Source: Methanotrichaceae archaeon
Lineage (GTDB): Archaea; Halobacteriota; Methanosarcinia; Methanotrichales; Methanotrichaceae
DNA: 64,000 bases
Direction: 5' to 3'
NCBI GenBank assembly: GCA_963813075.1
Contig: CAWEXU010000030.1
Span: 128,001-192,000, forward strand
Shown: positions 35,578 through 61,323 of the stretch, in pieces
Position numbering within the stretch: position 1 is the stretch's first letter
Layout of the letters: each line of letters starts with the position of its first letter
Translations under genes and position numbers: made by a program
Notes under the pieces: model-generated
Told to the model about the DNA's origin: nothing
What the model saw: the letters and a program-made list of their open reading frames with translations, nothing else
The model's database searches: none

Positions 35578-37695
35578 TCAGTCTCTCCTGCTAAGGACGA
35601 GGTAGGCAACTGCCAGAAGGCCAGTCAGAGCGAAGATGCTGCCAAATCCGGGTGTGACGTTGGTGGCTGCCTCAGCAGCTTCCTCAGCCTCGGCTTCGGC
35701 TGCAGCTACATCTTCTGTGGCTTCTTCAACAGCGGTTTCGGCTTCAGCTACCGTCTCTTTGGCTTCCTCAACGGCTACTTCGGCCTCTTCTACGGCTTCC
35801 TCAGCAGCAGCAGCAGCGACTGGAGCGGCGGCAGCGGGCTCAACCTCTTCGGTTGCGTTCTCGTCTGCGACACCATCTCCCTCGATGGTTACTGCCTTGT
35901 AGATGTAGTATCTGAGCTCATCGGCGTCAGCGGTCCTGATGGCCACACCAGGCATGAGGCTGATATCCTTGTTCTTGCTGAGGGTGATATCGTTGTCCTC
36001 ATTGTTCATGGTGACGGTATCAGCGGTGACCGTCTGGATGGTCATCTTATCGTACTCGGTGTTCTCAGAGACGTCCTTGGGGGTGTCAGAGAGCTGCCAC
36101 AGTCCATCAACGGTTGCCAGGTTCTGGTCAGCGCCGCGGAAGGCGTTCTTGAAGTGAGCAGCGACGAGCACTACATCCTTGGAGTCGCCGATATCCTTCT
36201 TGTAGTAGTAGGTCTTGTCCTTCATGTCGGCATTGTCGGCAGATGGGGAGATGACCTTGCTGTCAACGACCTCTCCGTCCTTGTGGAGCTCGAGGTAAAC
36301 CTTGTTACCATCGATATCAATGGACTGGATGGCCAGTTCGTAGCCCTCTTCCATAGCCAGAGGTGTGCCGGAGGTAACGGTTCTCTCATCATCGTTGTCC
36401 ACCAGGATCTGGAGGACCTGTTCATCGGAGAGAACATTCTCGTCGTCAGACTCCTCGAAGAGGACATCATTGGTGCTGTCCGCGGTGTCAAGGTATCCAG
36501 CGAAGTACTTGTCGGCCATGAAGCCGATCACATTGAAGGATCCCCATTCCTCGAACTCGAAGTCATCCTTCTGAGCGGTGGTGGTGTAGGTGACGCCATC
36601 GGGCTCCAGGAGCTTGTTGCCCTCAGAGATAGTGGCGGTCAGCTCTTCGGTCTTGATGTTGTCATCGATATCGTAGTAGAATCCAGCGAAGTTATCAGCG
36701 GTCCAGGTGTAGGTGTCAGTGGCCACATTGCCCCTCAGCTCATAGTCCCCGGCCTCGGTGATATCCTTGTAGATGTAGTATCTGAGCTCATCGGCATCAG
36801 CGGTCCTGATAGCGATGCCAGGCATGAGGCTGATATCCTTGTTCTTGCTGAGAGTGATATCGTTGTCCTCATTGTTCATCATGATGCTGTTGGCGGTGAC
36901 CGTCTGGATGGTCATCTTGTCGTACTCGGTGTTCTCAGAGACATCCTTGGGGGCGTCAGAGAGCTGCCACAGTCCATCAACGGTTGCCAGGTTCTGGTCA
37001 GCGCCGCGGAAGGCGTTCTTGAAGTGAGCAGCGACGATGACTACATCCTTGGAGTCGCCGATATCCATCTTGTAGTAGTAGGTCTTGTCCTTCATTCCAG
37101 CGTTGTCGGCGGATGGGGAGATGACCTTGCTGTCAACAACAGCTCCGTCCTTGCTGAGCTCGAGGTAAACCTTGTTACCATCGATATCAATGGACTGGAT
37201 GGCCAGCTCGTAACCCTCTTCCATAGCCAGAGGTGTGCCAGAGGTGACGGTTCTCTCATCATCGTTGTCCACCAGGATCTGGAGGACCTGCTCATCGGAA
37301 AGGACATTCTCGTCGTCAGACTCCTCGAAGAGCACATCATTGGTGCTGTCCGCGGTGTCAAGGTATCCAGCGAAGTACTTCTCGGCCATGAAGCCGATGA
37401 CATTGAAGGATCCCCATTCCTCGAACTCGAATTCGTCCTGCTGAGCGCTGGTGGTGTATGTGACGCCATCAGGCTCGAGGAGCTTGTTGCCTTCGGATAC
37501 GGTTGTTGTCAGTTCCTCGGTCTTGATGTTGTCATCAAGATCATAGTAGAAGCCGGCAAAGTCGTCTGCTGTCCAGGTGGCGCCTTCTGTGGCGACCTTC
37601 CCGCGGACCTCGACACTGTCAGCCGCTCCTACTGCCATCGCTGTTGCTAATAATAGCACCATCGATGTAAATGTAATTGCAGCTAATTTCTTCAT
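35578..37695 (-). CDS. Major S-layer protein (tandem duplicated S-layer domains, PGF-CTERM)
   Basis: Signal peptide; two ~290-aa repeats (FAGFYYD.DD); A/E-rich stalk; TPGF-TM-RR; strong codon bias. Confidence 0.9.
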   Translation of the reverse strand: MKKLAAITFTSMVLLLATAMAVGAADSVEVRGKVATEGATWTADDFAGFYYDLDDNIKTEELTTTVSEGNKLLEPDGVTYTTSAQQDEFEFEEWGSFNVIGFMAEKYFAGYLDTADSTNDVLFEESDDENVLSDEQVLQILVDNDDERTVTSGTPLAMEEGYELAIQSIDIDGNKVYLELSKDGAVVDSKVISPSADNAGMKDKTYYYKMDIGDSKDVVIVAAHFKNAFRGADQNLATVDGLWQLSDAPKDVSENTEYDKMTIQTVTANSIMMNNEDNDITLSKNKDISLMPGIAIRTADADELRYYIYKDITEAGDYELRGNVATDTYTWTADNFAGFYYDIDDNIKTEELTATISEGNKLLEPDGVTYTTTAQKDDFEFEEWGSFNVIGFMADKYFAGYLDTADSTNDVLFEESDDENVLSDEQVLQILVDNDDERTVTSGTPLAMEEGYELAIQSIDIDGNKVYLELHKDGEVVDSKVISPSADNADMKDKTYYYKKDIGDSKDVVLVAAHFKNAFRGADQNLATVDGLWQLSDTPKDVSENTEYDKMTIQTVTADTVTMNNEDNDITLSKNKDISLMPGVAIRTADADELRYYIYKAVTIEGDGVADENATEEVEPAAAAPVAAAAAEEAVEEAEVAVEEAKETVAEAETAVEEATEDVAAAEAEAEEAAEAATNVTPGFGSIFALTGLLAVAYLVLSRRD
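35896..37610. repeat. Intragenic direct repeat with 870-bp period
   Basis: AGATGTAGTATCTGAGCTCATCGGC at 35901 and 36771; long near-identical stretches throughout. Confidence 0.92.
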
Positions 37696-46484: not shown

Positions 46485-47477
46485 TCAGTTGAGACTGGTC
46501 ATCCGGGAGTAGTCCACCAGCGTGGATATGGGCAGGGTCTTTATCCTCGCGCCCAATTCCTCCGCAGCCACAGCCCCATTGACTCCGGCATAGAAGGCTA
46601 TACCGATCTTCCCTGCGGCCACTGGACAGCCCAGTATCGGCTCAGAGGGACCTCCGATATTTATCAGACCGCCAAAGCCCGCAGATCGAGATGCATCCAG
46701 TAGATCGAGGGCATTTTTAGCCGCCGCGACGGGCACCTCCCGCACATTGGCCAGCACTCTTCCAGATCCCCGGTGAATGGCATTGGCAACGCTTGTCACC
46801 TTCCTCCCCATGAAAACCTTCACCGGGTCCAGAGACGATCCGGCATAGGCTATGAGGTCAGTGAATCCGTATGGCTGCATCTCTTTGATCTCCGCCAGCC
46901 CGGCGAAGCTGGTGAGAACGGGAATTCCCTTCTTCATTAGAATTCCATCCATGGTTATGCTGCATACCGTCGCCACACCCAGGTATCCCGCGGGCACCTC
47001 CTGAGAGGAAAGCATGTCGCCTTCGTCGATAATCAATGCACGGCGGCTTATTGTATACCCCTCATCGAAAGCGCGAATAAGCATATCAATGACCTCGTCA
47101 GCATCCGTTTTATCCACGATGCTGGTATTGGCGATGACCTGGCCCAGGCCGCCGTGGGGATCAAAGCTGCTCTTGTACATATATTCCTCAATTCTGGTAT
47201 TCACAAAGCCCATCCGGTCGTCTATCAGAGCATCGCTCAGCTCTCTGGAGCCCAGAGGGGTGATCACCCGGCCGCTGTAGCCCTTCTTCTTGGTGAATCC
47301 CAGCTCATCGAGGATCTTGAGGTTATAGCGCACCGCCCTTTCGCCCAGATCGTAGCCACGGCTGCAAAGGATGTCTGAGATCGCCCTCGCCCCCACGGGC
47401 ATGCTGGCGCTCTCGATCACCCTGAGGATCTCTACTAGCCTTCGCTGGCTCATATGGGTCTTGGTGAGCAGCTTCAT
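46485..47477 (-). CDS. nrpR: NrpR-family nitrogen regulator (wHTH plus a single NRD/DUF128 domain, NrpRI-like)
   Basis: GARAIS...GERAVRYNLKILDELGFT; VIAN.S, TVCSITMDG, YAGSSLDP, AN.RE.P. Confidence 0.85.
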   Translation of the reverse strand: MKLLTKTHMSQRRLVEILRVIESASMPVGARAISDILCSRGYDLGERAVRYNLKILDELGFTKKKGYSGRVITPLGSRELSDALIDDRMGFVNTRIEEYMYKSSFDPHGGLGQVIANTSIVDKTDADEVIDMLIRAFDEGYTISRRALIIDEGDMLSSQEVPAGYLGVATVCSITMDGILMKKGIPVLTSFAGLAEIKEMQPYGFTDLIAYAGSSLDPVKVFMGRKVTSVANAIHRGSGRVLANVREVPVAAAKNALDLLDASRSAGFGGLINIGGPSEPILGCPVAAGKIGIAFYAGVNGAVAAEELGARIKTLPISTLVDYSRMTSLN

Positions 47478-47584: not shown

Positions 47585-47657
47585 AGTCCCGTGGGGTAGA
47601 GGTCAATCCTGAGGGCCTTTGGAGCCCGCGACGGCGGTTCGAATCCGCCCGGGACTA
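47585..47657 (+). tRNA. tRNA-Gln(TTG)
   Basis: Acceptor AGTCCCG/CGGGACT (A1-U72); anticodon arm GGGC-CTTTGGA-GCCC; T arm GGCGG-TTCGAAT-CCGCC. Confidence 0.95.
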
Positions 47658-47728
47658 CTTTAAACCCGAAGATCATCAGAAATGTAGATATATCTGGTCG
47701 ATCTCATGGGAGAGGGCCAGGCGGGTTG

Positions 47729-47737
47729 ATTTATATC
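47729..47737 (+). promoter_or_regulatory. TATA-box-like element upstream of tRNA-Glu
   Basis: ATTTATATC starting about 20 nt before the tRNA 5' end. Confidence 0.45.
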
Positions 47738-47749
47738 GCCTGAACAATT

Positions 47750-47824
47750 GCTCCGGTAGTGTAGCCCGGCCAATCATTTCGGCCTTTCAAGCCGAAGACT
47801 CGGGTCCAAATCCCGGCCGGAGCA
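47750..47824 (+). tRNA. tRNA-Glu(TTC)
   Basis: Acceptor GCTCCGG/CCGGAGC; anticodon arm TCGGC-CTTTCAA-GCCGA; T-loop reads TCCAAAT. Confidence 0.92.
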
Positions 47825-48276
47825 TTTACCATAACTCATTCTGGATTGCTCTGCGCGGCTCTTTTGAGCCGGGGCGAAGATGGCCGCCCCGAACTCCAGC
47901 GCGCATTATTGTGATCTCTGCCCGAGAGAGGATGGCGACATCTTTCAATGAAAGCCAGGAAAAGGCAAAGGGCTATTTTGGAATACCAGAATGGCGAATA
48001 TGATCAATTGATGTCGATTTTTCAGATAAAAGCCCGATATGTTTATATTCCTGAAGGCGGTATTAGGTGCTCGTGCCTGAGCAAAATACTCAAATATAAG
48101 CCGATTAGCATGAGGATCAGGTACTCCATAAAGCAAGCGAAATCCGAGTTGCTCTGCACGAGCATGATGCTATGCAGAGAATGAGGCATCGTTGTCTTAT
48201 GGTGCCAATGGATTTGGGCCTCTGCGGACGGCTTAGATCCTAAGCATTGATGGTAAATCAAGGAGGTGGGAAAGAA

Positions 48277-48999
48277 ATGAGAAAACTAATAGCTGTTTTG
48301 ATTATAGTCGCCATGGCCGTAGTAGGCATGGCCGGTGCAGCTAACTATATGTACGAAAAGGCATCGGTCAAGGGCGTTGGATACAAGAACGTAGAGATGA
48401 TCATTTCCACCCAGTCTGGCTTTGCTGGCCAGAAGCTGGTTGAGAAAGAGTCCGGGTCCGGAAACGTGATCACCGAGAGGACCGAGCTGGAAGCCGAGAG
48501 GCAGATGGACGCCGCTGGACTTCAGATGCCCTGCACATACCCCAATACCTGCGCCATGGACTACATCAACTTCACCAAAGAAGCTGAGTTCGAGTACATG
48601 CCAGTCTCTTACCAGACAGGCACCTATGACCAGAAGTGGGTTGAGAAGCTGTGCGTGCAGAACTACAAGATCGGCGCTGTGCTGACTGAGATGTACAGCC
48701 ACGCTGAGCACCTGCAGAAGACCACCGAGGTCAAGACCAGAGGCTACCAGGACGGATGTGTAAGCAACTGCTGCACCGGTGTCCTCGAAGCTAACCTGAA
48801 CAGCAACGTCATCGGCGTTGCCCACATCGGCTGGATCTCCAGGGATCCACAGCCCAGCAGCGCTCTCAAGGGCCGCCATGCTGAGTACGGCAGATCGGTC
48901 GAGGACCTGACTGGCGTCTTCTCCATTGAGAAGTTCATCCAGCTCTGGGGCAACTCCACCTGCGGCGCCATCAGCGTTGATTGGCTGCCCTGCGTGTAA
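48277..48999 (+). CDS. Secreted Cys-rich structural protein, copy A (candidate sheath protein family)
   Basis: GGAGGTG RBS; signal peptide ending GMAGA; ANYMYEK...DWLPCV; S-layer-like codon bias. Confidence 0.85.
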   Translation: MRKLIAVLIIVAMAVVGMAGAANYMYEKASVKGVGYKNVEMIISTQSGFAGQKLVEKESGSGNVITERTELEAERQMDAAGLQMPCTYPNTCAMDYINFTKEAEFEYMPVSYQTGTYDQKWVEKLCVQNYKIGAVLTEMYSHAEHLQKTTEVKTRGYQDGCVSNCCTGVLEANLNSNVIGVAHIGWISRDPQPSSALKGRHAEYGRSVEDLTGVFSIEKFIQLWGNSTCGAISVDWLPCV

Positions 49000-49029
49000 A
49001 TAGCTAGAACTGCAAAAACTTGGATTATG

Positions 49030-49054
49030 ACTCCGGGCGGCAATGCCTGGAGTC
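49030..49054 (+). terminator. 3' GC hairpin after copy A
   Basis: GACTCCGGGC-GGCAAT-GCCTGGAGTC, then TTTTT. Confidence 0.55.
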
Positions 49055-49559
49055 TAGGCCACATTTTTCAAAGTGATACTATCAACTATTGTCTGTGATT
49101 TTTGCTAAATGCTCCTGAAAAGGACTACTTCAAAGGACCATTCCTGTGATGACTTCAAGATATCTCTCTGAAGATCACCGGGTCCCAGATACGACGAGAT
49201 TTGTTCAGGGCAAAACAGGCAGATGAGGGCAGAATCCTGGAATATAAAATTCTCTTATCCCTGCTCGATAGCTTTATATGCCAGTAATCTAATGAGAAAG
49301 GTTGTGCCTGAGACAATTGCTCAATTAATGTCTAGTGGTAATCCTGTAATCAGGCGCCTCACGCCGGATAGGATGACAGTTAACGCTTTTGGCTTATGTA
49401 CTGGAGCAGAGCGGGGCCTAGCGGCTTCATCTCTTCAGGTAAAGCGATCCTGGATCTCTGATCGAGGATCTGTATATCCAGCCGGGGTGATGTACTGAAG
49501 GATCATTTGTTGCTATCAATAGCAGCTTTCGATCCTCATGTAAAGGAGGTGGGAAAGAA

Positions 49560-50282
49560 ATGAGAAAACTAATAGCTGTTTTGATTATAGTCGCCATGGC
49601 CGTAGTAGGCATGGCCGGTGCAGCTAACTATATGTACGAAAAGGCATCGGTCAAAGGCGTTGGATACAAGAACGTAGAGATGATCATTTCCACACAGTCC
49701 GGTTTCGCCGGCCAGAAGCTGGTTGAGAAAGAGTCCGGGTCCGGAAACGTAATCACCGAGAGGACTGAGCTGGAAGCCGAGAGGCAGCTTGACGCCGCTG
49801 GACTTCAGATGCCCTGCTATTATCCCAATACCTGTGCCATGGACTACATCAACTTCACCAAGGAAGCTGAGTTCGAGTACATGCCAGTCTCTTACCAGAC
49901 AGGCACCTATGACCAGAAGTGGGTTGAGAAGCTGTGCGTGCAGAACTACAGAATCGGCGCTGTGCTGACTGAGATGTACAGCCATGCTGAGCACCTGCAG
50001 AAGACCACCGAGGTCAAGACCAGAGGCTACCAGAACACCTGTGTAAGCAACTGCTGCACCGGCGTCCTCGAAGCTAACCTGAACAGCAACGTCATCGGCG
50101 TTGCCCATATCGGCTGGATCTCCAGGGATCCCGAGCCCAGCAGGCTGCTCAAGGGCAGACATGCTGAGTACGGCAGATCGGTCGAGGACCTGACTGGTGT
50201 CTTCTCCATTGAGAAGTTCATCCAGCTCTGGGGCAACTCCACATGCGGCGCAATCAGCGTTGACTGGCTGCCCTGCGTGTAA
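49560..50282 (+). CDS. Secreted Cys-rich structural protein, copy B
   Basis: Same length as copy A (240 aa) and nearly identical; differences cluster in short loops. Confidence 0.85.
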   Translation: MRKLIAVLIIVAMAVVGMAGAANYMYEKASVKGVGYKNVEMIISTQSGFAGQKLVEKESGSGNVITERTELEAERQLDAAGLQMPCYYPNTCAMDYINFTKEAEFEYMPVSYQTGTYDQKWVEKLCVQNYRIGAVLTEMYSHAEHLQKTTEVKTRGYQNTCVSNCCTGVLEANLNSNVIGVAHIGWISRDPEPSRLLKGRHAEYGRSVEDLTGVFSIEKFIQLWGNSTCGAISVDWLPCV

Positions 50283-50360
50283 ATAGATAAAGCTGCAAAC
50301 ACTTGGATTGAGGCCCTGGGCGGCAACGCCCAAGGTCATTTTTTTTTATCAGAGGAGGGA

Positions 50361-51176
50361 TTGCAAATTAATAAAACAATAGCTGTTTTGATTATAGTCG
50401 CCATGGCCTTGATAGGCATGGCCGGTGCAGCCAACTACATGTACGAAAAGGCATCGGTCAAAGGCGTTGGATACAAAGATGTAGAGATGATCGTCTCCAC
50501 ACAGTCCGGTTTCGCCGGCCAAAAATTGGTGGAGAAGGAGTCAGGTTCGGGAAATGTGATAACAGAGAGGACCGAGCTGGAAGCAGAGAGACAGCTGAAT
50601 ACTGACGGAAGCCCTATCGGCTGGATTATAGATTCCGATGGATTCCCATGTCTTTGGTGCGGATGCGACTGGCCGACGGGAACGCTATGTCCCATGGACT
50701 ACATCAATTTCACCAAGGAAGCTGAGTTCGAGTACATGCCCGTCTCATATCAGACCGGCACCTACGATCAGAAATGGGTGGAGAAACTCTGTGTGCAAAA
50801 CTACAAGATCGGTGCGGTTATGACCGAGATGTACAGCCATGCGGAGCACTTGCAGAAGACCACCGAGGTCAAGACGAGAGGATACGGCACTTATAACAGA
50901 ATGGATCCAAACAAGTACATCTTCACCTCCTGTGGCTGTCCACCATGCTGTACCGGCGTGCTTGAGGCCAACCTGAACAGCAACGTTATCGGCGTTGCCC
51001 ATATCGGCTGGATCTCCAGGGATCCCCAGCCCAGCAGCGCCCTCAAGGGACGACATGCTGAGTACGGCAGATCGGTCGAGGACCTGACCGGCGTCTTCTC
51101 CATTGAGAAGTTCATCCAGCTCTGGGGCAACTCCACCTGCGGTGCAGTCAGCGTTGACTGGCTGCCCTGTGTGTAG
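50361..51176 (+). CDS. Secreted Cys-rich structural protein, copy C (extended Cys loops)
   Basis: GGAGG plus TTG start; same scaffold with two insertions (…PCLWCGCDWPTGTLCP, …TSCGCPPCC). Confidence 0.85.
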   Translation: MQINKTIAVLIIVAMALIGMAGAANYMYEKASVKGVGYKDVEMIVSTQSGFAGQKLVEKESGSGNVITERTELEAERQLNTDGSPIGWIIDSDGFPCLWCGCDWPTGTLCPMDYINFTKEAEFEYMPVSYQTGTYDQKWVEKLCVQNYKIGAVMTEMYSHAEHLQKTTEVKTRGYGTYNRMDPNKYIFTSCGCPPCCTGVLEANLNSNVIGVAHIGWISRDPQPSSALKGRHAEYGRSVEDLTGVFSIEKFIQLWGNSTCGAVSVDWLPCV

Positions 51177-51492
51177 ATGAAAGCCTGTCGAGCTATGAAT
51201 TATTGAATTCGGATGAAGGACGCAAAAAGGATTCCTGCTCCGGGCAAGTATGCCTGGGGCAGGCACTATTTTAATTTATTTTATCGGCCAGGCAGCGGAA
51301 AAAAGCAGCACACCCTCAATTACGAGCTAATTCCTGAACCAGCCTATGGAAGACGATTATAATCAACAGATAGATTTATATCGAATAAAAGCATCAGCTT
51401 ATAATTGTGGCTCAAGTCCTGCAAATAAGGCAGGATTACAACATCTAAAGGGATTAATAACTGTCACGTCACGCATCGGGGGTAATTGTATC

Positions 51493-52269
51493 ATGAAGGG
51501 AGTAACGATAGTAGTTATTATAGTAGCTCTAATGGGGCTAAGCAGCATTGTGCTGGCCAATCCTCCACTGGTACCGCCAGTGCAATATGAACAATTTTGT
51601 GAAAGCCATAAAGTATCCGGTTCCGGTATTATCGATGTCTCCAATTCCATTATCGATAAAAAGATAGCTCTAGAATACTTCGATACCATGAATGGGGACG
51701 GAGACTTTGAGCTGGATCAGGAGACGGCATATTCTCAGAATGCTGATGTCCTCAAAAGGAATGTCTCCACGGTAAATGGTGGAAACAAGTCCAACCTGAA
51801 CTTCGTCCAGAACACCAAGATGACCTACAGTGGACAGACACCCTTGACCGGAGGGCGGCTTCTTAATTCCAAGGAGTTTTATGGCGGCATCGGTGCCAAT
51901 GTGCAGGAACTGTTCTCGGTGACCGAGATGGAGCAGGATGAGACTGCGTTCTTCGCCTCCACCACCCCATACAACCCGCCAGGCACAACGCCAGAGAATC
52001 TAATAGGATCGCTCGCGAGCGCGGGAAGAGATCAGGAAGCAGTTGCAGCGTTGATGGGCAACAATCCTGCCCACCTGGTGGGAATTGAGACCAAGAACTC
52101 CTTCAACGGCACATGGGGAACAGACGCCACATGGCACAGGATATTCTACAAGGATATCAAGGCTCATGAGATGTTCACCGGAACGTTCGAGGCAGAGAAG
52201 GTTCTGAAGTTCCATGAGAACCCCGTGCCTGAGAGGCAACATGTGCCCTGCGAAGGCATAGACTGCTAG
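51493..52269 (+). CDS. Secreted protein, distant member of the same family
   Basis: Signal peptide; E..KVSGSG near the N-terminus; HEMFTGTFEAEK resembles VEDLTGVFSIEK; C-terminal PCEGIDC. Confidence 0.7.
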   Translation: MKGVTIVVIIVALMGLSSIVLANPPLVPPVQYEQFCESHKVSGSGIIDVSNSIIDKKIALEYFDTMNGDGDFELDQETAYSQNADVLKRNVSTVNGGNKSNLNFVQNTKMTYSGQTPLTGGRLLNSKEFYGGIGANVQELFSVTEMEQDETAFFASTTPYNPPGTTPENLIGSLASAGRDQEAVAALMGNNPAHLVGIETKNSFNGTWGTDATWHRIFYKDIKAHEMFTGTFEAEKVLKFHENPVPERQHVPCEGIDC

Positions 52270-52317
52270 GTCTAAACGACCCAGCTGCCTTTTTTCTATT
52301 TATTTCAGGGGGTTACC

Positions 52318-53496
52318 ATGATAAGATGTCTGATCATAACTGCAACAATATTGATCCTGACTGCATGCCAGGTGCAGGCTACGGTTGAGGATCCGGGAAT
52401 GGAGTTGGGTGACATTTCAGGCACCTGGTCAGGTCCCTCTACCCCATCCATTCCAGACTACCTGCCCAGTCCCTGTTCAGGAGATTCTGGTGCTCTATCC
52501 ATAGAGGTCAGCCTCACAGGACCGGAATCCGAGAAGGATAAGTCCTATACCACCCAGGGAAAGGCACTGAACTATGTGGTCACTGTAACCAATGAGGGCT
52601 CGACGGACGCCGAGGTGGAAGTGTGCGTCAAGCCGATGGACTGCGCACTGGATTGGTTTGGCTGGACCAGGACCTCCTTGAATATCCCGGCAGGAGGGAC
52701 CCGCTCCCAGGATCTGGCTGTGAAGCCGGATGCCAATGCAATCGCAGGCAAGTACAGGTTTGCAGTCGAGGCCTCGGCAAAATGCCGCACCTCTGCCTCT
52801 AAAGATGCGTCGTTCCGGGTGCAAGCATTCGATTATGCTTCAGAGACCGCAATCAGTGGCTCAGGCCAGTTCCAGATGACCAAAGACCTCAGGTCCATGG
52901 AATCGGGGATCAAGTCCACCAAGGATGTGATATTCAGCGGCAGCGTGGATGCCCTGGTCAAGAACGAGTACATGGTGGATGAAGCAAGAGGAAAGAACGC
53001 CAACTTCGTCGAACAGGATGCTGTTGACAACTACAATGCCGTGGCCAGCGGGGACGCGCTTGTGGGAACGGAGAGCTTCAAGAGCTCGGCCATATTTGGC
53101 GGCGTCGGATCCAAGGTCCGGGAGACCTATGATCTGCAACAGATGGAGTTCAAGAGCCAGGATTTCACATTACATCAGACTGGATCGCTGAAAAAGACGG
53201 CGGAGTTCAAGACGATGGACAACTTCACCGGATATTACCTCATAGATGCCAAACAGTCGATTCCCGGCCAGAAGAGTCTGAAAGAGCTTGAAGAGTACTT
53301 CGGATCCTTTGAGATCAACAGGAGGATTCTCTTCCGCAATAACGCCGAATCTGAGCCCGCCTGCCAGGATGGCGACTGCCAGGGTATAGCTACACCCGCC
53401 AACACCTCCAGGAGCCTGCCTGCTGCCAGCCCCTGCACGAGCAACTCATGCCACAACTTCGTAAATAGATTGAATAATTTCGCTCAGAAGGCATGA
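52318..53496 (+). CDS. Secreted protein with an Ig-like domain and a family-like C-terminal domain
   Basis: Signal peptide; YVVTVTNEG...AGKYRF.V.A Ig-like domain; YASETAISGSG...EEYFGSFEINR; Cys-rich tail. Confidence 0.7.
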   Translation: MIRCLIITATILILTACQVQATVEDPGMELGDISGTWSGPSTPSIPDYLPSPCSGDSGALSIEVSLTGPESEKDKSYTTQGKALNYVVTVTNEGSTDAEVEVCVKPMDCALDWFGWTRTSLNIPAGGTRSQDLAVKPDANAIAGKYRFAVEASAKCRTSASKDASFRVQAFDYASETAISGSGQFQMTKDLRSMESGIKSTKDVIFSGSVDALVKNEYMVDEARGKNANFVEQDAVDNYNAVASGDALVGTESFKSSAIFGGVGSKVRETYDLQQMEFKSQDFTLHQTGSLKKTAEFKTMDNFTGYYLIDAKQSIPGQKSLKELEEYFGSFEINRRILFRNNAESEPACQDGDCQGIATPANTSRSLPAASPCTSNSCHNFVNRLNNFAQKA

Positions 53497-53638
53497 GCCT
53501 CTTTTTTCTTTTTTTCTAAAATTTGCATTTTGCGACTTGAATATTTCGGCCAAAACCTTGAAATAGACTGCAGAGAAGCTTATAACGGGTGCTAGGGTTC
53601 TTAGTAGAGCGATCTTTCCGAAAAGGAGGTAGTGTGGA

Positions 53639-54349
53639 TTGAAAAGAGAATTGATTATTTTAGCGGTCATCGCCATGGCCCTGATAGGCATGGCAGGCGC
53701 TGCCAATTACATGTACGAGAAATCGTCTGTAAAAGGAGTGGGGTACAGAAGTCTGGAGATGGTCATCTCCACCCAGCCTGGCTATGAGGGCCAGAAGCTG
53801 GTGGAGAAGCAGTCCGGCTCAGGAAATGTCATCACCTCCCGGATAGAGCTGGAGGCGGAGAGGCAGCCAGCAGACTCGGATTGCGCGTGGACGAACGGCT
53901 ATCCCATGGACTACATCAACTTCACCTCGGAGCAGGAGCTGGAGTACATGCCAGTCTCTTATCAGACCGGCACCTACGACCAGAAATGGGTGGACAAGCT
54001 GTGTGTGCAGAACTACAAGATAGGAGCGGTTATGACCGAGATGTACACTCATGCCGAGCACCTGCAGAAGACAACCGAGGTCAAAACCCGAGGCTACAAT
54101 GCCCAGACCGAGACACCCTGCTGCAATGGCGTCCTTGAGGCCAACATCAACAGCAATGTGATAGGCGTGGCCCATATCGGCTGGATCTCCAGAGATCCAC
54201 AGGGCAGCAGCGCTCTGAAGGGCAGACATGCGGAGTACGGCCGATCGGTCGAGGACCTGACTGGCGTCTTCTCCATTGAGAAGTTCATCCAGCTCTGGGG
54301 CAACTCCACCTGCGGCGCAGTCAGTGTTGATTGGCTGCCCTGCGTATAA
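53639..54349 (+). CDS. Secreted Cys-rich structural protein, copy D
   Basis: GGAGGT plus TTG start; ANYMYEK...DWLPCV scaffold with shorter loops. Confidence 0.85.
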   Translation: MKRELIILAVIAMALIGMAGAANYMYEKSSVKGVGYRSLEMVISTQPGYEGQKLVEKQSGSGNVITSRIELEAERQPADSDCAWTNGYPMDYINFTSEQELEYMPVSYQTGTYDQKWVDKLCVQNYKIGAVMTEMYTHAEHLQKTTEVKTRGYNAQTETPCCNGVLEANINSNVIGVAHIGWISRDPQGSSALKGRHAEYGRSVEDLTGVFSIEKFIQLWGNSTCGAVSVDWLPCV

Positions 54350-58426: not shown

Positions 58427-59269
58427 GTGAATTATGCGAAGGAGAGGAATTACCGTAAGGTTTTTCTTATATCGGCTTTGCTGATAGCATTAATTTTCAG
58501 CTCAGCTCAGGCTATAACCACCAGAGACCTGATATTTGCCAGGAGCCCGGAGACCTCACAGCCTATCACAACTGCGGTAGCAGACGCCATGAACCAGGCA
58601 CCAGTGGTCAAAGGCCTGACTCCAGATCAGGAAGCTCCACAGACTGCAGGCTCAACAGTGGTCTGGACTGGGGACGCATTTGATTCAGAGGGCGATGAGC
58701 TGCTCTATCAGTTCTGGCTGAACGGGCCGATGACTGGAAACACCTGGATGCCTATGACCACCTGGAGCAAGAACAATACCTGGGTCTGGGCTACAAGCAC
58801 AGCGGACATTGGAGTTAATGTAATCGATATGCGAATCAGAGATGGGCGACATGAACCCCCCTGGGGACATGACAGCCATCTGGGCGCTGAATACGCCATA
58901 AGCGAGAATGCAGGCATTGCCGGCAGCTCGAAATCCAACTCCAAACCAACTCTGGTCAGCATGAAATCAGATAAACAGAGCCCGCAGGATAAGGGTGTGA
59001 CAGTAACCTGGACGGCAAAGGCGACAGACAGGGACAGGGATACGGTCCTATACCGCTATGTCCTCAAAGGGCCATCTACAGAAGAGCAGTGGGAGCCCAT
59101 GACCGACTGGACTACAAACGATGTCTGGACCTGGGAAACGAGCAAGGCAAAGGCCGGCATATACATGATCGAGGTATGGATAAGAGACGGATACCATGCC
59201 GACACCGACAACTGGGACGACTCCAAGAGGACGCCATTTGTCCTGATGCAGAAGGGAATAATCAAGTAA
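58427..59269 (+). CDS. Secreted protein with two Trp-rich Ig-like (Y_Y_Y-like) repeats
   Basis: Signal peptide; two copies of N..P...PQ..G..V.WT..A.D...D..LY...L.GP.T...W.PMT.W...W.W.TS...IRDG.H. Confidence 0.75.
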   Translation: MNYAKERNYRKVFLISALLIALIFSSAQAITTRDLIFARSPETSQPITTAVADAMNQAPVVKGLTPDQEAPQTAGSTVVWTGDAFDSEGDELLYQFWLNGPMTGNTWMPMTTWSKNNTWVWATSTADIGVNVIDMRIRDGRHEPPWGHDSHLGAEYAISENAGIAGSSKSNSKPTLVSMKSDKQSPQDKGVTVTWTAKATDRDRDTVLYRYVLKGPSTEEQWEPMTDWTTNDVWTWETSKAKAGIYMIEVWIRDGYHADTDNWDDSKRTPFVLMQKGIIK

Positions 59270-60375: not shown

Positions 60376-61323
60376 TTGGTTAAGATAGGGTTAGTGCTAA
60401 TTTTTTTACTACTGATCGCCGGCATTTCCGGGGCGGGAAAATATGATATGAATCCGGGAAGGGAAGCGATCAAGTACAAGCATGAGATGACCGACGATGT
60501 CACAGGGCAGGGTTTTGCTGTGGAATACAAAAGCGTAAACACGAATAACCTTTCCCTGCTGGAGTACTACCACGGCAGCGGAAATGTGGACATGGCCGAT
60601 ATACTGAACTCCGAGCAAAAGACAACTGACAGCTCCTGCTATTATTACCTGGATTACGATGGCACAATGAAGAAAGCCTCAAAAGGGGCCAATAGCATTG
60701 TCACCTACACCAGGCAGTATGATAATATCCAGTCACCCACCGCATTTGCCTATGGCACCGGCTGGTATGCCAATCATCCCATTGAGTACAACTCTCTTAT
60801 CAAGGATAAGACCGAGGCCAAGAGCTATCAGGAGTCGGCATCAATGCACCGCCAGGTGGAGTATGCCCATGCTCTGAAAGGGGACATCGCTGTAGAGATC
60901 AACTGCACCGGACCCACAGACAAAGCAGATGGCAAGGGCATTTTAAGCATGAAGATCGATGATGATATGACTCAGGGTACCCTGCACATCGGCGAATTGC
61001 TGTTGAGCCCCAAGGAAAAGAGCCAGCCGAAGACGTTTGACCCCATAATCGAGGTGGACAACGACTACATCGGCGACTTCCAGGTGCAAAAGACGATGAA
61101 ACTGGAGATAACCAAGAGCAAAGAGAGCTCTCAGGTGGACTGGCTCCCCTGCTGCTCAGGCGGATTCTTCGACCTTCCCTCCTATGACTTCGATAAACAG
61201 TACGCTGGCTGGAAGGGAATCTTCGACTGCACCTGCCGGGAGAAATCCATCTCCTCCATGAAGCCGGAGTGGAACACCACTCGCGCTCAGTTCCCGACAG
61301 AAGAGTACCGGTACAAGCCCTGA
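60376..61323 (+). CDS. Secreted protein, distant member of the Cys-rich family
   Basis: Signal peptide; VTGQG, EYYHGSGNV, DYIGDFQVQK, VDWLPCC. Confidence 0.72.
   Translation: MVKIGLVLIFLLLIAGISGAGKYDMNPGREAIKYKHEMTDDVTGQGFAVEYKSVNTNNLSLLEYYHGSGNVDMADILNSEQKTTDSSCYYYLDYDGTMKKASKGANSIVTYTRQYDNIQSPTAFAYGTGWYANHPIEYNSLIKDKTEAKSYQESASMHRQVEYAHALKGDIAVEINCTGPTDKADGKGILSMKIDDDMTQGTLHIGELLLSPKEKSQPKTFDPIIEVDNDYIGDFQVQKTMKLEITKSKESSQVDWLPCCSGGFFDLPSYDFDKQYAGWKGIFDCTCREKSISSMKPEWNTTRAQFPTEEYRYKP

What the first reader, a model, noticed from the sequence alone, without database searches (positions are those of the whole stretch)
48277..54349. Tandem locus of secreted Cys-rich paralogs: candidate multi-subunit sheath/extracellular polymer system
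Seen: six co-oriented genes with signal peptides and no TM anchor or PGF-CTERM. Four share a near-invariant scaffold (ANYMYEK...GVLEAN.NSNVIGVAHIGW...EDLTGVFSIEKFIQLWGNSTCGA.SVDWLPCV) with alternating beta-strand patterning and many Cys. Copies A and B have the same strong codon bias as the S-layer gene, which suggests very high expression. Established: Methanothrix/Methanosaeta filaments sit in a proteinaceous, disulfide-stabilised amyloid sheath (MspA in M. thermophila). Inference: these genes encode major and minor subunits of such a polymer. I cannot confirm homology to MspA from memory.
Basis: partly seen in the sequence, partly recalled or inferred. Interest (0 to 1): 0.85.

Follow-up and report, generated by a model that had tools for sequence, protein, structure and literature searches.

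The report
Methanothrix sheath-protein gene cluster
These six neighbouring genes of a methane-making archaeon (Methanothrix) belong to a protein family published in 2024 whose members are predicted to lock edge to edge into the tough tube that likely encases its cell filaments, so the find is real but already described.

Summary
Real, and already described. All six co-oriented, signal-peptide genes are present. They are the main cluster of SH (sheath-forming) proteins of Methanothrix defined by Medvedeva et al. 2024 (PMC11576556), not MspA. A, B, C and F match the paper's rows for the Mthe_0668 type, D the Mthe_0667 type and E the Ig-bearing Mthe_0666 type (tag mapping inferred from gene order). 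The same A-A-D-E-F array of a named relative is in its alignment. My models give A and D six long beta-arches each. A predicted A-D complex pairs A's last arch with D's first (0.69, best control 0.00; one of three runs failed). A and B have codon bias like the S-layer and mcr genes; D and E do not. Both types occur in 77 of 77 genomes of the order. Modest additions: two Cys-rich loops vary on a near-fixed core, Cys counts are nearly always even, and the 3' ends of A and F look homogenised by gene conversion (AU p=3e-5). The scan reported this cluster before on other genomes. That these proteins build the sheath is still predicted, not shown by proteomics or cryo-EM.

The parts
48277..48999 (+). 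Gene A: SH protein, Mthe_0668 type, likely major subunit; signal peptide 1-21, six predicted beta-arches, 8 Cys
   Evidence: strong ribosome site GGAGGTG
48502..48555 (+). Variable Cys loop 1 of A (mature residues 55-72)
   Evidence: 103 distinct loop sequences in 114 segmented relatives, median 22 aa
48742..48777 (+). Variable Cys loop 2 of A (mature residues 135-146)
   Evidence: 11-40 aa, 98 distinct in 114
48880..48957 (+). Last beta-arch of A (mature 181-206): predicted docking edge; lies in the 3' block that looks gene-converted
49560..50282 (+). Gene B: second copy of A, 96.7% identical protein, likely major subunit
50361..51176 (+). Gene C: A-type copy with longer loops and an odd Cys count (11); likely minor
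   Evidence: 47-57 of 1553 ORFs score higher
51493..52269 (+). Gene D: SH protein, Mthe_0667 type; six predicted arches plus a two-helix cap; first arch (51589-51660) predicted to pair with A
52318..53496 (+). Gene E: SH protein, Mthe_0666 type; N-terminal Ig-like region then an SH core from about residue 166
   Evidence: row 00701 core start matches; NPCBM_assoc E=0.0012, under cut-off; core vs D profile 96%, E=2e-9; not folded here
53639..54349 (+). Gene F: old, separate A-type lineage with its own N-terminal arches and 6 Cys; likely minor
60376..61323 (+).
   Evidence: A1 profile E=1.7e-10; hhalign 95%, E=2.8e-8
35578..37695 (-). S-layer gene (context); eight genes separate it from A, as Mthe_0677 from Mthe_0668
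47585..47825 (+). tRNA-Gln and tRNA-Glu just upstream (context)

Best explanation
This is the main cluster of SH-family genes of a Methanothrix, and their secreted products likely build the tubular sheath around the cell filament. Each protein would be exported by its signal peptide and is predicted to fold into six beta-arches forming two sheets; subunits are predicted to join head to tail, the last arch of one pairing antiparallel with the first arch of the next, to give continuous cross-beta rings that would stack into hoops as shown for Methanospirillum. A and B are likely the bulk subunits; C, D, E and F would be mixed in at lower level and bring different caps (long Cys loops, two helices, an Ig-like domain). 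The Cys-rich loops are likely stapled by intrachain disulfides. Gene conversion likely keeps the tandem copies, and the docking end of F, alike within a genome.
For: Shown: the paper's SH alignment rows GCF000014945_00703, _00702 and _00701 begin as A, D and the core of E do, and rows GCA013178225_01275/01277/01278/01279/01280 match the A-A-D-E-F array of the named record L029. Four viral SH-like proteins printed in full there carry the scaffold. A-type genes in 77 of 77 and D-type in 77 of 77 genomes of the order, but 16 of 301 across the phylum, 0 of 43 in the other sampled large family of the class. Order D-E-F after A copies in 23 of 27 loci that show D; three are cut by contig or locus ends, one lacks F. 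Published: Mthe_0668 and Mthe_0667 rank first and third in the M. thermoacetophila transcriptome. Predicted here: A pLDDT 85.5 and D 72.8, each with six long extended elements; A-D complex score 0.69, best of 3 controls 0.00, mark reached by 116 of 157 solved complexes and 2 of 215 mismatches, runs agree in at least 0% of contacts, partner pLDDT at least 65, interface A 181-206 with D 11-34. Codon bias of A and B. Conversion.
Against: No proteomic or cryo-EM identification of this family in a Methanothrix sheath turned up; the one protein identified by mass spectrometry there is MspA, itself fifth in that transcriptome. One of three complex runs scored 0.01 and the runs need not share contacts. 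A and D are barely alignable by sequence, so their kinship rests on models. D lacks high-expression codon bias here (500-829 of 1553 ORFs score higher), unlike the 100:67 ratio published for the thermophile. Only about 25-30 N-terminal residues of the paper's host rows were visible, and the row-to-Mthe mapping is inferred. Only DSSP strings, not coordinates, were returned, so the two-sheet packing and disulfide pairs were not measured.
Confidence: 0.87

Rival explanations
1. The proteins polymerise, but into another envelope part (spacer plugs, an inner layer or free fibres), while MspA or another protein forms the sheath wall.
For: MspA was the protein found by mass spectrometry in M. thermophila sheaths and is highly transcribed; plug proteins are unknown; no direct localisation of this family was found.
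Against: MspA homologs occur in a few strains only while this family is in 77 of 77 genomes; the predicted six-arch fold and head-to-tail pairing match the cryo-ET-supported Methanospirillum subunit.
Confidence: 0.09
2. They are non-polymerising secreted proteins such as enzymes, adhesins or pore formers.
For: The top Foldseek rows are beta-pore proteins and E has an Ig-like region.
Against: Those rows have E above 0.001 and TM-score about 0.14; no fold match reaches Z 8; no catalytic family; models are open-edged arch stacks that pair edge to edge.
Confidence: 0.03
3. On the array's history only: the near-identical copies are recent independent duplications, as the 2024 paper suggests, with no gene conversion; shared 3' changes in A and F would be parallel evolution.
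For: One of 18 loci with both anchors has a single copy and copy number runs from 1 to 5; in 12 of 45 upstream copies the nearest sequence is in another genome; F is closer to its own A than to other genomes' A at silent sites in only 10 of 14 loci.
Against: 17 of 18 loci have two or more copies yet own copies differ at 0-6% of silent sites against 18-33% between genomes; the 3' block rejects an all-F split (AU p=2.9e-5) and gives 5 own A+F pairs of 14 at 85-100 support, while the 5' block does not reject it (p=0.50).
Confidence: 0.2

Closest known systems
SH proteins of Methanotrichales, Mthe_0666-0668 of M. thermoacetophila PT (Medvedeva, Borrel, Gribaldo 2024, PMC11576556)
   Same: Same three types in the same order next to the S-layer region; matching N-termini and lengths (243/271/362 aa against 240/258/392); clustered near-identical copies; viral copies (32 viral loci).
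   Different: Here three A-type copies precede D and an F-type copy follows E; D shows no high-expression codon bias. In the main-text parts I read, the paper does not treat the two variable Cys loops, Cys parity or gene conversion.
Methanospirillum hungatei sheath protein SH, WP_011449234.1 / Mhun_2271 (PMC6242892, PMC10593813)
   Same: Signal peptide, predicted six beta-arches, joining of first and last arches between subunits.
   Different: 40.6 kDa with a large helical cap and one or two Cys proposed to link rings between chains; A is about 24 kDa with 8 Cys in small loops. No direct sequence or structure comparison was possible (only EMDB maps are deposited).
MspA of Methanosaeta thermophila, ABK14853.1 / Mthe_1069 (Dueholm 2015; seen only as cited in other papers)
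   Same: Secreted, highly transcribed, amyloid-like sheath candidate of the same order.
   Different: 575 aa, two Cys, patchy distribution, reported as structurally unlike SH.

Membership tests
SH proteins (Medvedeva 2024) | N-terminal signal peptide, no membrane anchor | tested here: met
   Hydropathy for all six; no PGF-CTERM; SignalP not available
SH proteins (Medvedeva 2024) | Core of six beta-arches (two six-stranded sheets) | tested here: met
   A and D models, read from DSSP; E core by homology to D only
SH proteins (Medvedeva 2024) | Sequence membership in the published SH set | tested here: met
   Supplement rows and full viral sequences; host rows visible for about 25-30 residues; the published HMM was not run
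SH proteins (Medvedeva 2024) | Edge-to-edge pairing of unlike subunits | tested here: met
   Prediction only: 0.69 vs best control 0.00; runs 0.74/0.69/0.01; agreement at least 0%; partner pLDDT at least 65
SH proteins (Medvedeva 2024) | Very high expression of the main subunit | tested here: inconclusive
   Codon proxy met for A and B; RNA runs were contigs and cannot give levels
SH proteins (Medvedeva 2024) | Confined to sheathed lineages | tested here: inconclusive
   77 of 77 in the order; 6 of 291 genomes outside the family match, but those families are unnamed
SH proteins (Medvedeva 2024) | Structural superposition on M. hungatei SH | tested here: inconclusive
   No such model listed in the PDB searches; data deposited as EMDB maps
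SH proteins (Medvedeva 2024) | Present in purified sheath; amyloid behaviour | not testable with these tools
   Needs proteomics, dye binding, cryo-EM
MspA (ABK14853.1) | Sequence homology to MspA | not tested
   No MspA sequence was in hand; the 2015 paper is not held
MspA (ABK14853.1) | About 575 aa and found in few strains | tested here: not met
   236-392 aa, universal in the order against Table S3
Methanosarcinales-type S-layer protein | PF07752 domains and PGF-CTERM | tested here: not met
   Absent from all six; present in 35578-37695

The most novel reading that the evidence does not exclude
The array is a self-homogenising sheath cassette: gene conversion holds the docking arch identical across major and minor subunits, while two disulfide-stapled outer loops diversify fast, perhaps under pressure from viruses that carry their own copies; F, with a conserved but different first arch, would be a dedicated ring-closing or ring-stacking subunit.
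Probability: 0.3. Interest if true: 0.45.

Novelty: already known. Interest (0 to 1): 0.2.

Why it matters
Methanothrix is a major acetate-consuming methane producer and its sheath is the surface that partners and viruses meet. Which protein builds it is still unsettled: mass spectrometry named MspA, while structure prediction and transcriptomes point to this family. The locus gives exact targets (A/B as bulk, C-F as minor) to settle that, but it does not add a new system.

Tried and rejected
Pfam, NCBIfam and PDB sequence searches gave nothing above cut-off. ESM Atlas gave no usable hit for A and E was not searched there. Fold searches: no match at E<=0.001 in PDB or BFVD, none at Z>=8 for A or D; this does not exclude kin. 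Self-consistent CAI tracked GC content, not expression, and was dropped. Searches read the S-layer gene, and one search also the S6e gene, on the wrong strand; those results are discarded and redone. RNA: 4 of 23 listed runs were laid; contigs cover A-F, with pieces nearly identical to D (741 bases, 1 difference) and E (1023 bases, 0), and none covers 46668-47335; summed depth is far higher over A/B than D/E, but contigs cannot rank genes, so I draw no level from it. Terminator-like hairpins follow A, B, C, E and F (12 found, 5.6 +/- 2.4 expected), but the scan is built for bacteria, so operon structure stays open. The careful protein tree did not finish; the quick tree is used. Accessions for the database hits could not be listed, so the link to published ids goes through the supplement rows. 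Pore-former and S-layer readings rejected as above.

Full report
Observation. The six + strand genes exist as described. A, B, C and F share the scaffold at 72-97% identity; D and E are distant (D-E BLAST E=7e-8; no significant match to A). All have one N-terminal hydrophobic stretch and no later one, and no family hit. Close database relatives are named Methanothrix hypothetical proteins (2399 hits among 2519 candidates). With the S-layer gene read on its correct strand, A and B rank beside the S-layer, mcr and cdh genes in codon use (2-6 of 1553 ORFs higher), C and F are in the top 3-7%, D and E are ordinary.

Identity. Medvedeva et al. 2024 (PMC11576556; I read main-text parts 1-4 of 6, all text of supplement 3, passages and part 47 of supplement 2, rows and parts 1 and 7 of supplement 4) define SH proteins by structural likeness to the Methanospirillum sheath protein, report them clustered with up to 100% identity, and set MspA aside as probably misidentified. 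Their alignment holds three consecutive M. thermoacetophila rows whose visible starts match A (00703, 243 aa), D (00702, 271 aa) and the core of E (00701, 362 aa). Their SH list holds three consecutive tags, Mthe_0666-0668. I infer 00703 = Mthe_0668 from order; in support, eight genes lie between the S-layer gene and A in this window, as between Mthe_0677 and Mthe_0668. The paper's rows GCA013178225_01275, 01277, 01278, 01279 and 01280 match the A-A-D-E-F array on the named contig L029. Long rows were cut in the supplement view, so only N-terminal letters of host rows were compared; four viral members were seen whole. Mthe_0668 and Mthe_0667 rank first and third in the published transcriptome, MspA fifth.

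Distribution and layout. A-type and D-type genes occur in 77 of 77 genomes of the order. Across 301 genomes of the phylum the A profile matches 16: the own genome, 9 of 9 in the family, 5 of 39 in one other family and 1 of 52 in another. Among 77 fetched loci (the best 80 of 470 matches plus two chosen stretches, so biased to close kin), 27 show D; 23 continue D-E-F, three are cut short, one lacks F; 17 of 18 with both the S6e anchor and D have two or more A copies. The own genome holds 19 SH-like frames by my profiles, one at window 60376-61323. Thirty-two viral loci carry A-type genes, as the paper reports.

Structure and mechanism. Mature A folds with pLDDT 85.5 into six long extended elements, the two loops sitting after arches 2 and 4; D gives six such elements plus two helices at pLDDT 72.8. 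This fits the six beta-arches described for the Methanospirillum subunit, whose rings form by joining first and last arches (PMC10593813, parts 1-2 of 6 and passages). A predicted A-D pair scored 0.69 against 0.00 for the best of three controls (mark reached by 116 of 157 solved complexes and 2 of 215 mismatches; runs 0.74, 0.69, 0.01; agreement at least 0%; partner pLDDT at least 65), with A 181-206 antiparallel to D 11-34. The paper made a like prediction, so this repeats rather than extends it. No solved fold matched. Export, ring closure, stacking and subunit ratios are inferred.

Cysteines. In 114 of 121 distinct relatives that could be segmented, the three core blocks average 92-95% identity to A with fixed Cys counts (0, 1, 2), while the two loops vary in length and sequence. 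Totals are even in 117 of 121, 118 of 120 close hits and 25 of 25 viral proteins; loop Cys counts move together (1+2 in 34, 2+3 in 71 of 114). These are kin, not independent cases, but the pattern suggests intrachain bonds. C here has 11 and could supply an interchain link (speculation).

Array evolution. In 17 full arrays the F copies form one clade (17 of 17, SH-aLRT 100, quick tree), while 33 of 45 upstream copies are nearest to a copy in their own locus. After dropping three near-duplicate loci, own A copies differ at 0-6% of silent sites against 18-33% between genomes. For F, the 5' block does not reject the all-F split (support only 27; AU p=0.50) but the 3' block does (p=2.9e-5), with five own A+F pairs among 14; F is closer to its own A at 3' silent sites in 10 of 14 (0.20 vs 0.32). 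The blocks are short (162 and 189 bases). Partial gene conversion is the best reading, and the converted block contains the predicted docking arch. A search on these terms listed no paper on it for sheath genes among the 20 rows shown of 1,164; an earlier scan note reported the same pattern.

Comparison with MspA. From passages of PMC6242892 (12 of 22) and PMC10470525 (8 of 8), MspA is a 60.9 kDa, two-Cys protein found by mass spectrometry; Table S3 gives 575 aa and five homologs beyond the species. Dueholm 2015 was not available. I did not align to MspA, but size and distribution do not fit.

Verdict. Observation confirmed; interpretation right on the sheath, unsupported on MspA. The system is published and was noted before by this scan on other genomes. 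What stays open is experimental proof that this family, not MspA, forms the Methanothrix sheath (none found in searches). Interest 0.2.

Noticed in passing
window 60376-61323 (+): Seventh SH-like gene with signal peptide and a DWLPCC motif, 6 kb downstream of the array; ordinary codon use.
   Followed up: partly
window 58427-59269 (+): 280-aa secreted-looking protein with two internal repeats and no Pfam hit.
   Followed up: no
G000 C10:66983-67456 and C17:96712-97188: Short (about 158 aa) A-like proteins holding only the last three or four arches; similar short forms are common among the 50%-cluster hits.
   Followed up: no
G000 C10:31108-31920, C27:47894-48778, C30:339952-340719: Three more D-type genes elsewhere in the genome.
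   Followed up: no
P0122: An A-type core preceded by a ubiquitin-like domain instead of a signal peptide; may be an assembly chimera.
   Followed up: no
L091-L122: Viral A-type copies differ from host A mostly in the first arch, as F does, and several have a short hydrophobic C-terminal tail.
   Followed up: partly
L012, L020, L057: A-type genes on contigs labelled Methanomethylophilaceae, Methylobacillus and Acholeplasmataceae; probably mis-binned or viral (L012 and viral L099 share contig length 19868).
   Followed up: no
G000 C31:68508-69026: An ORF whose start resembles a phage-tail-tube or contractile-injection protein (recalled).
   Followed up: no
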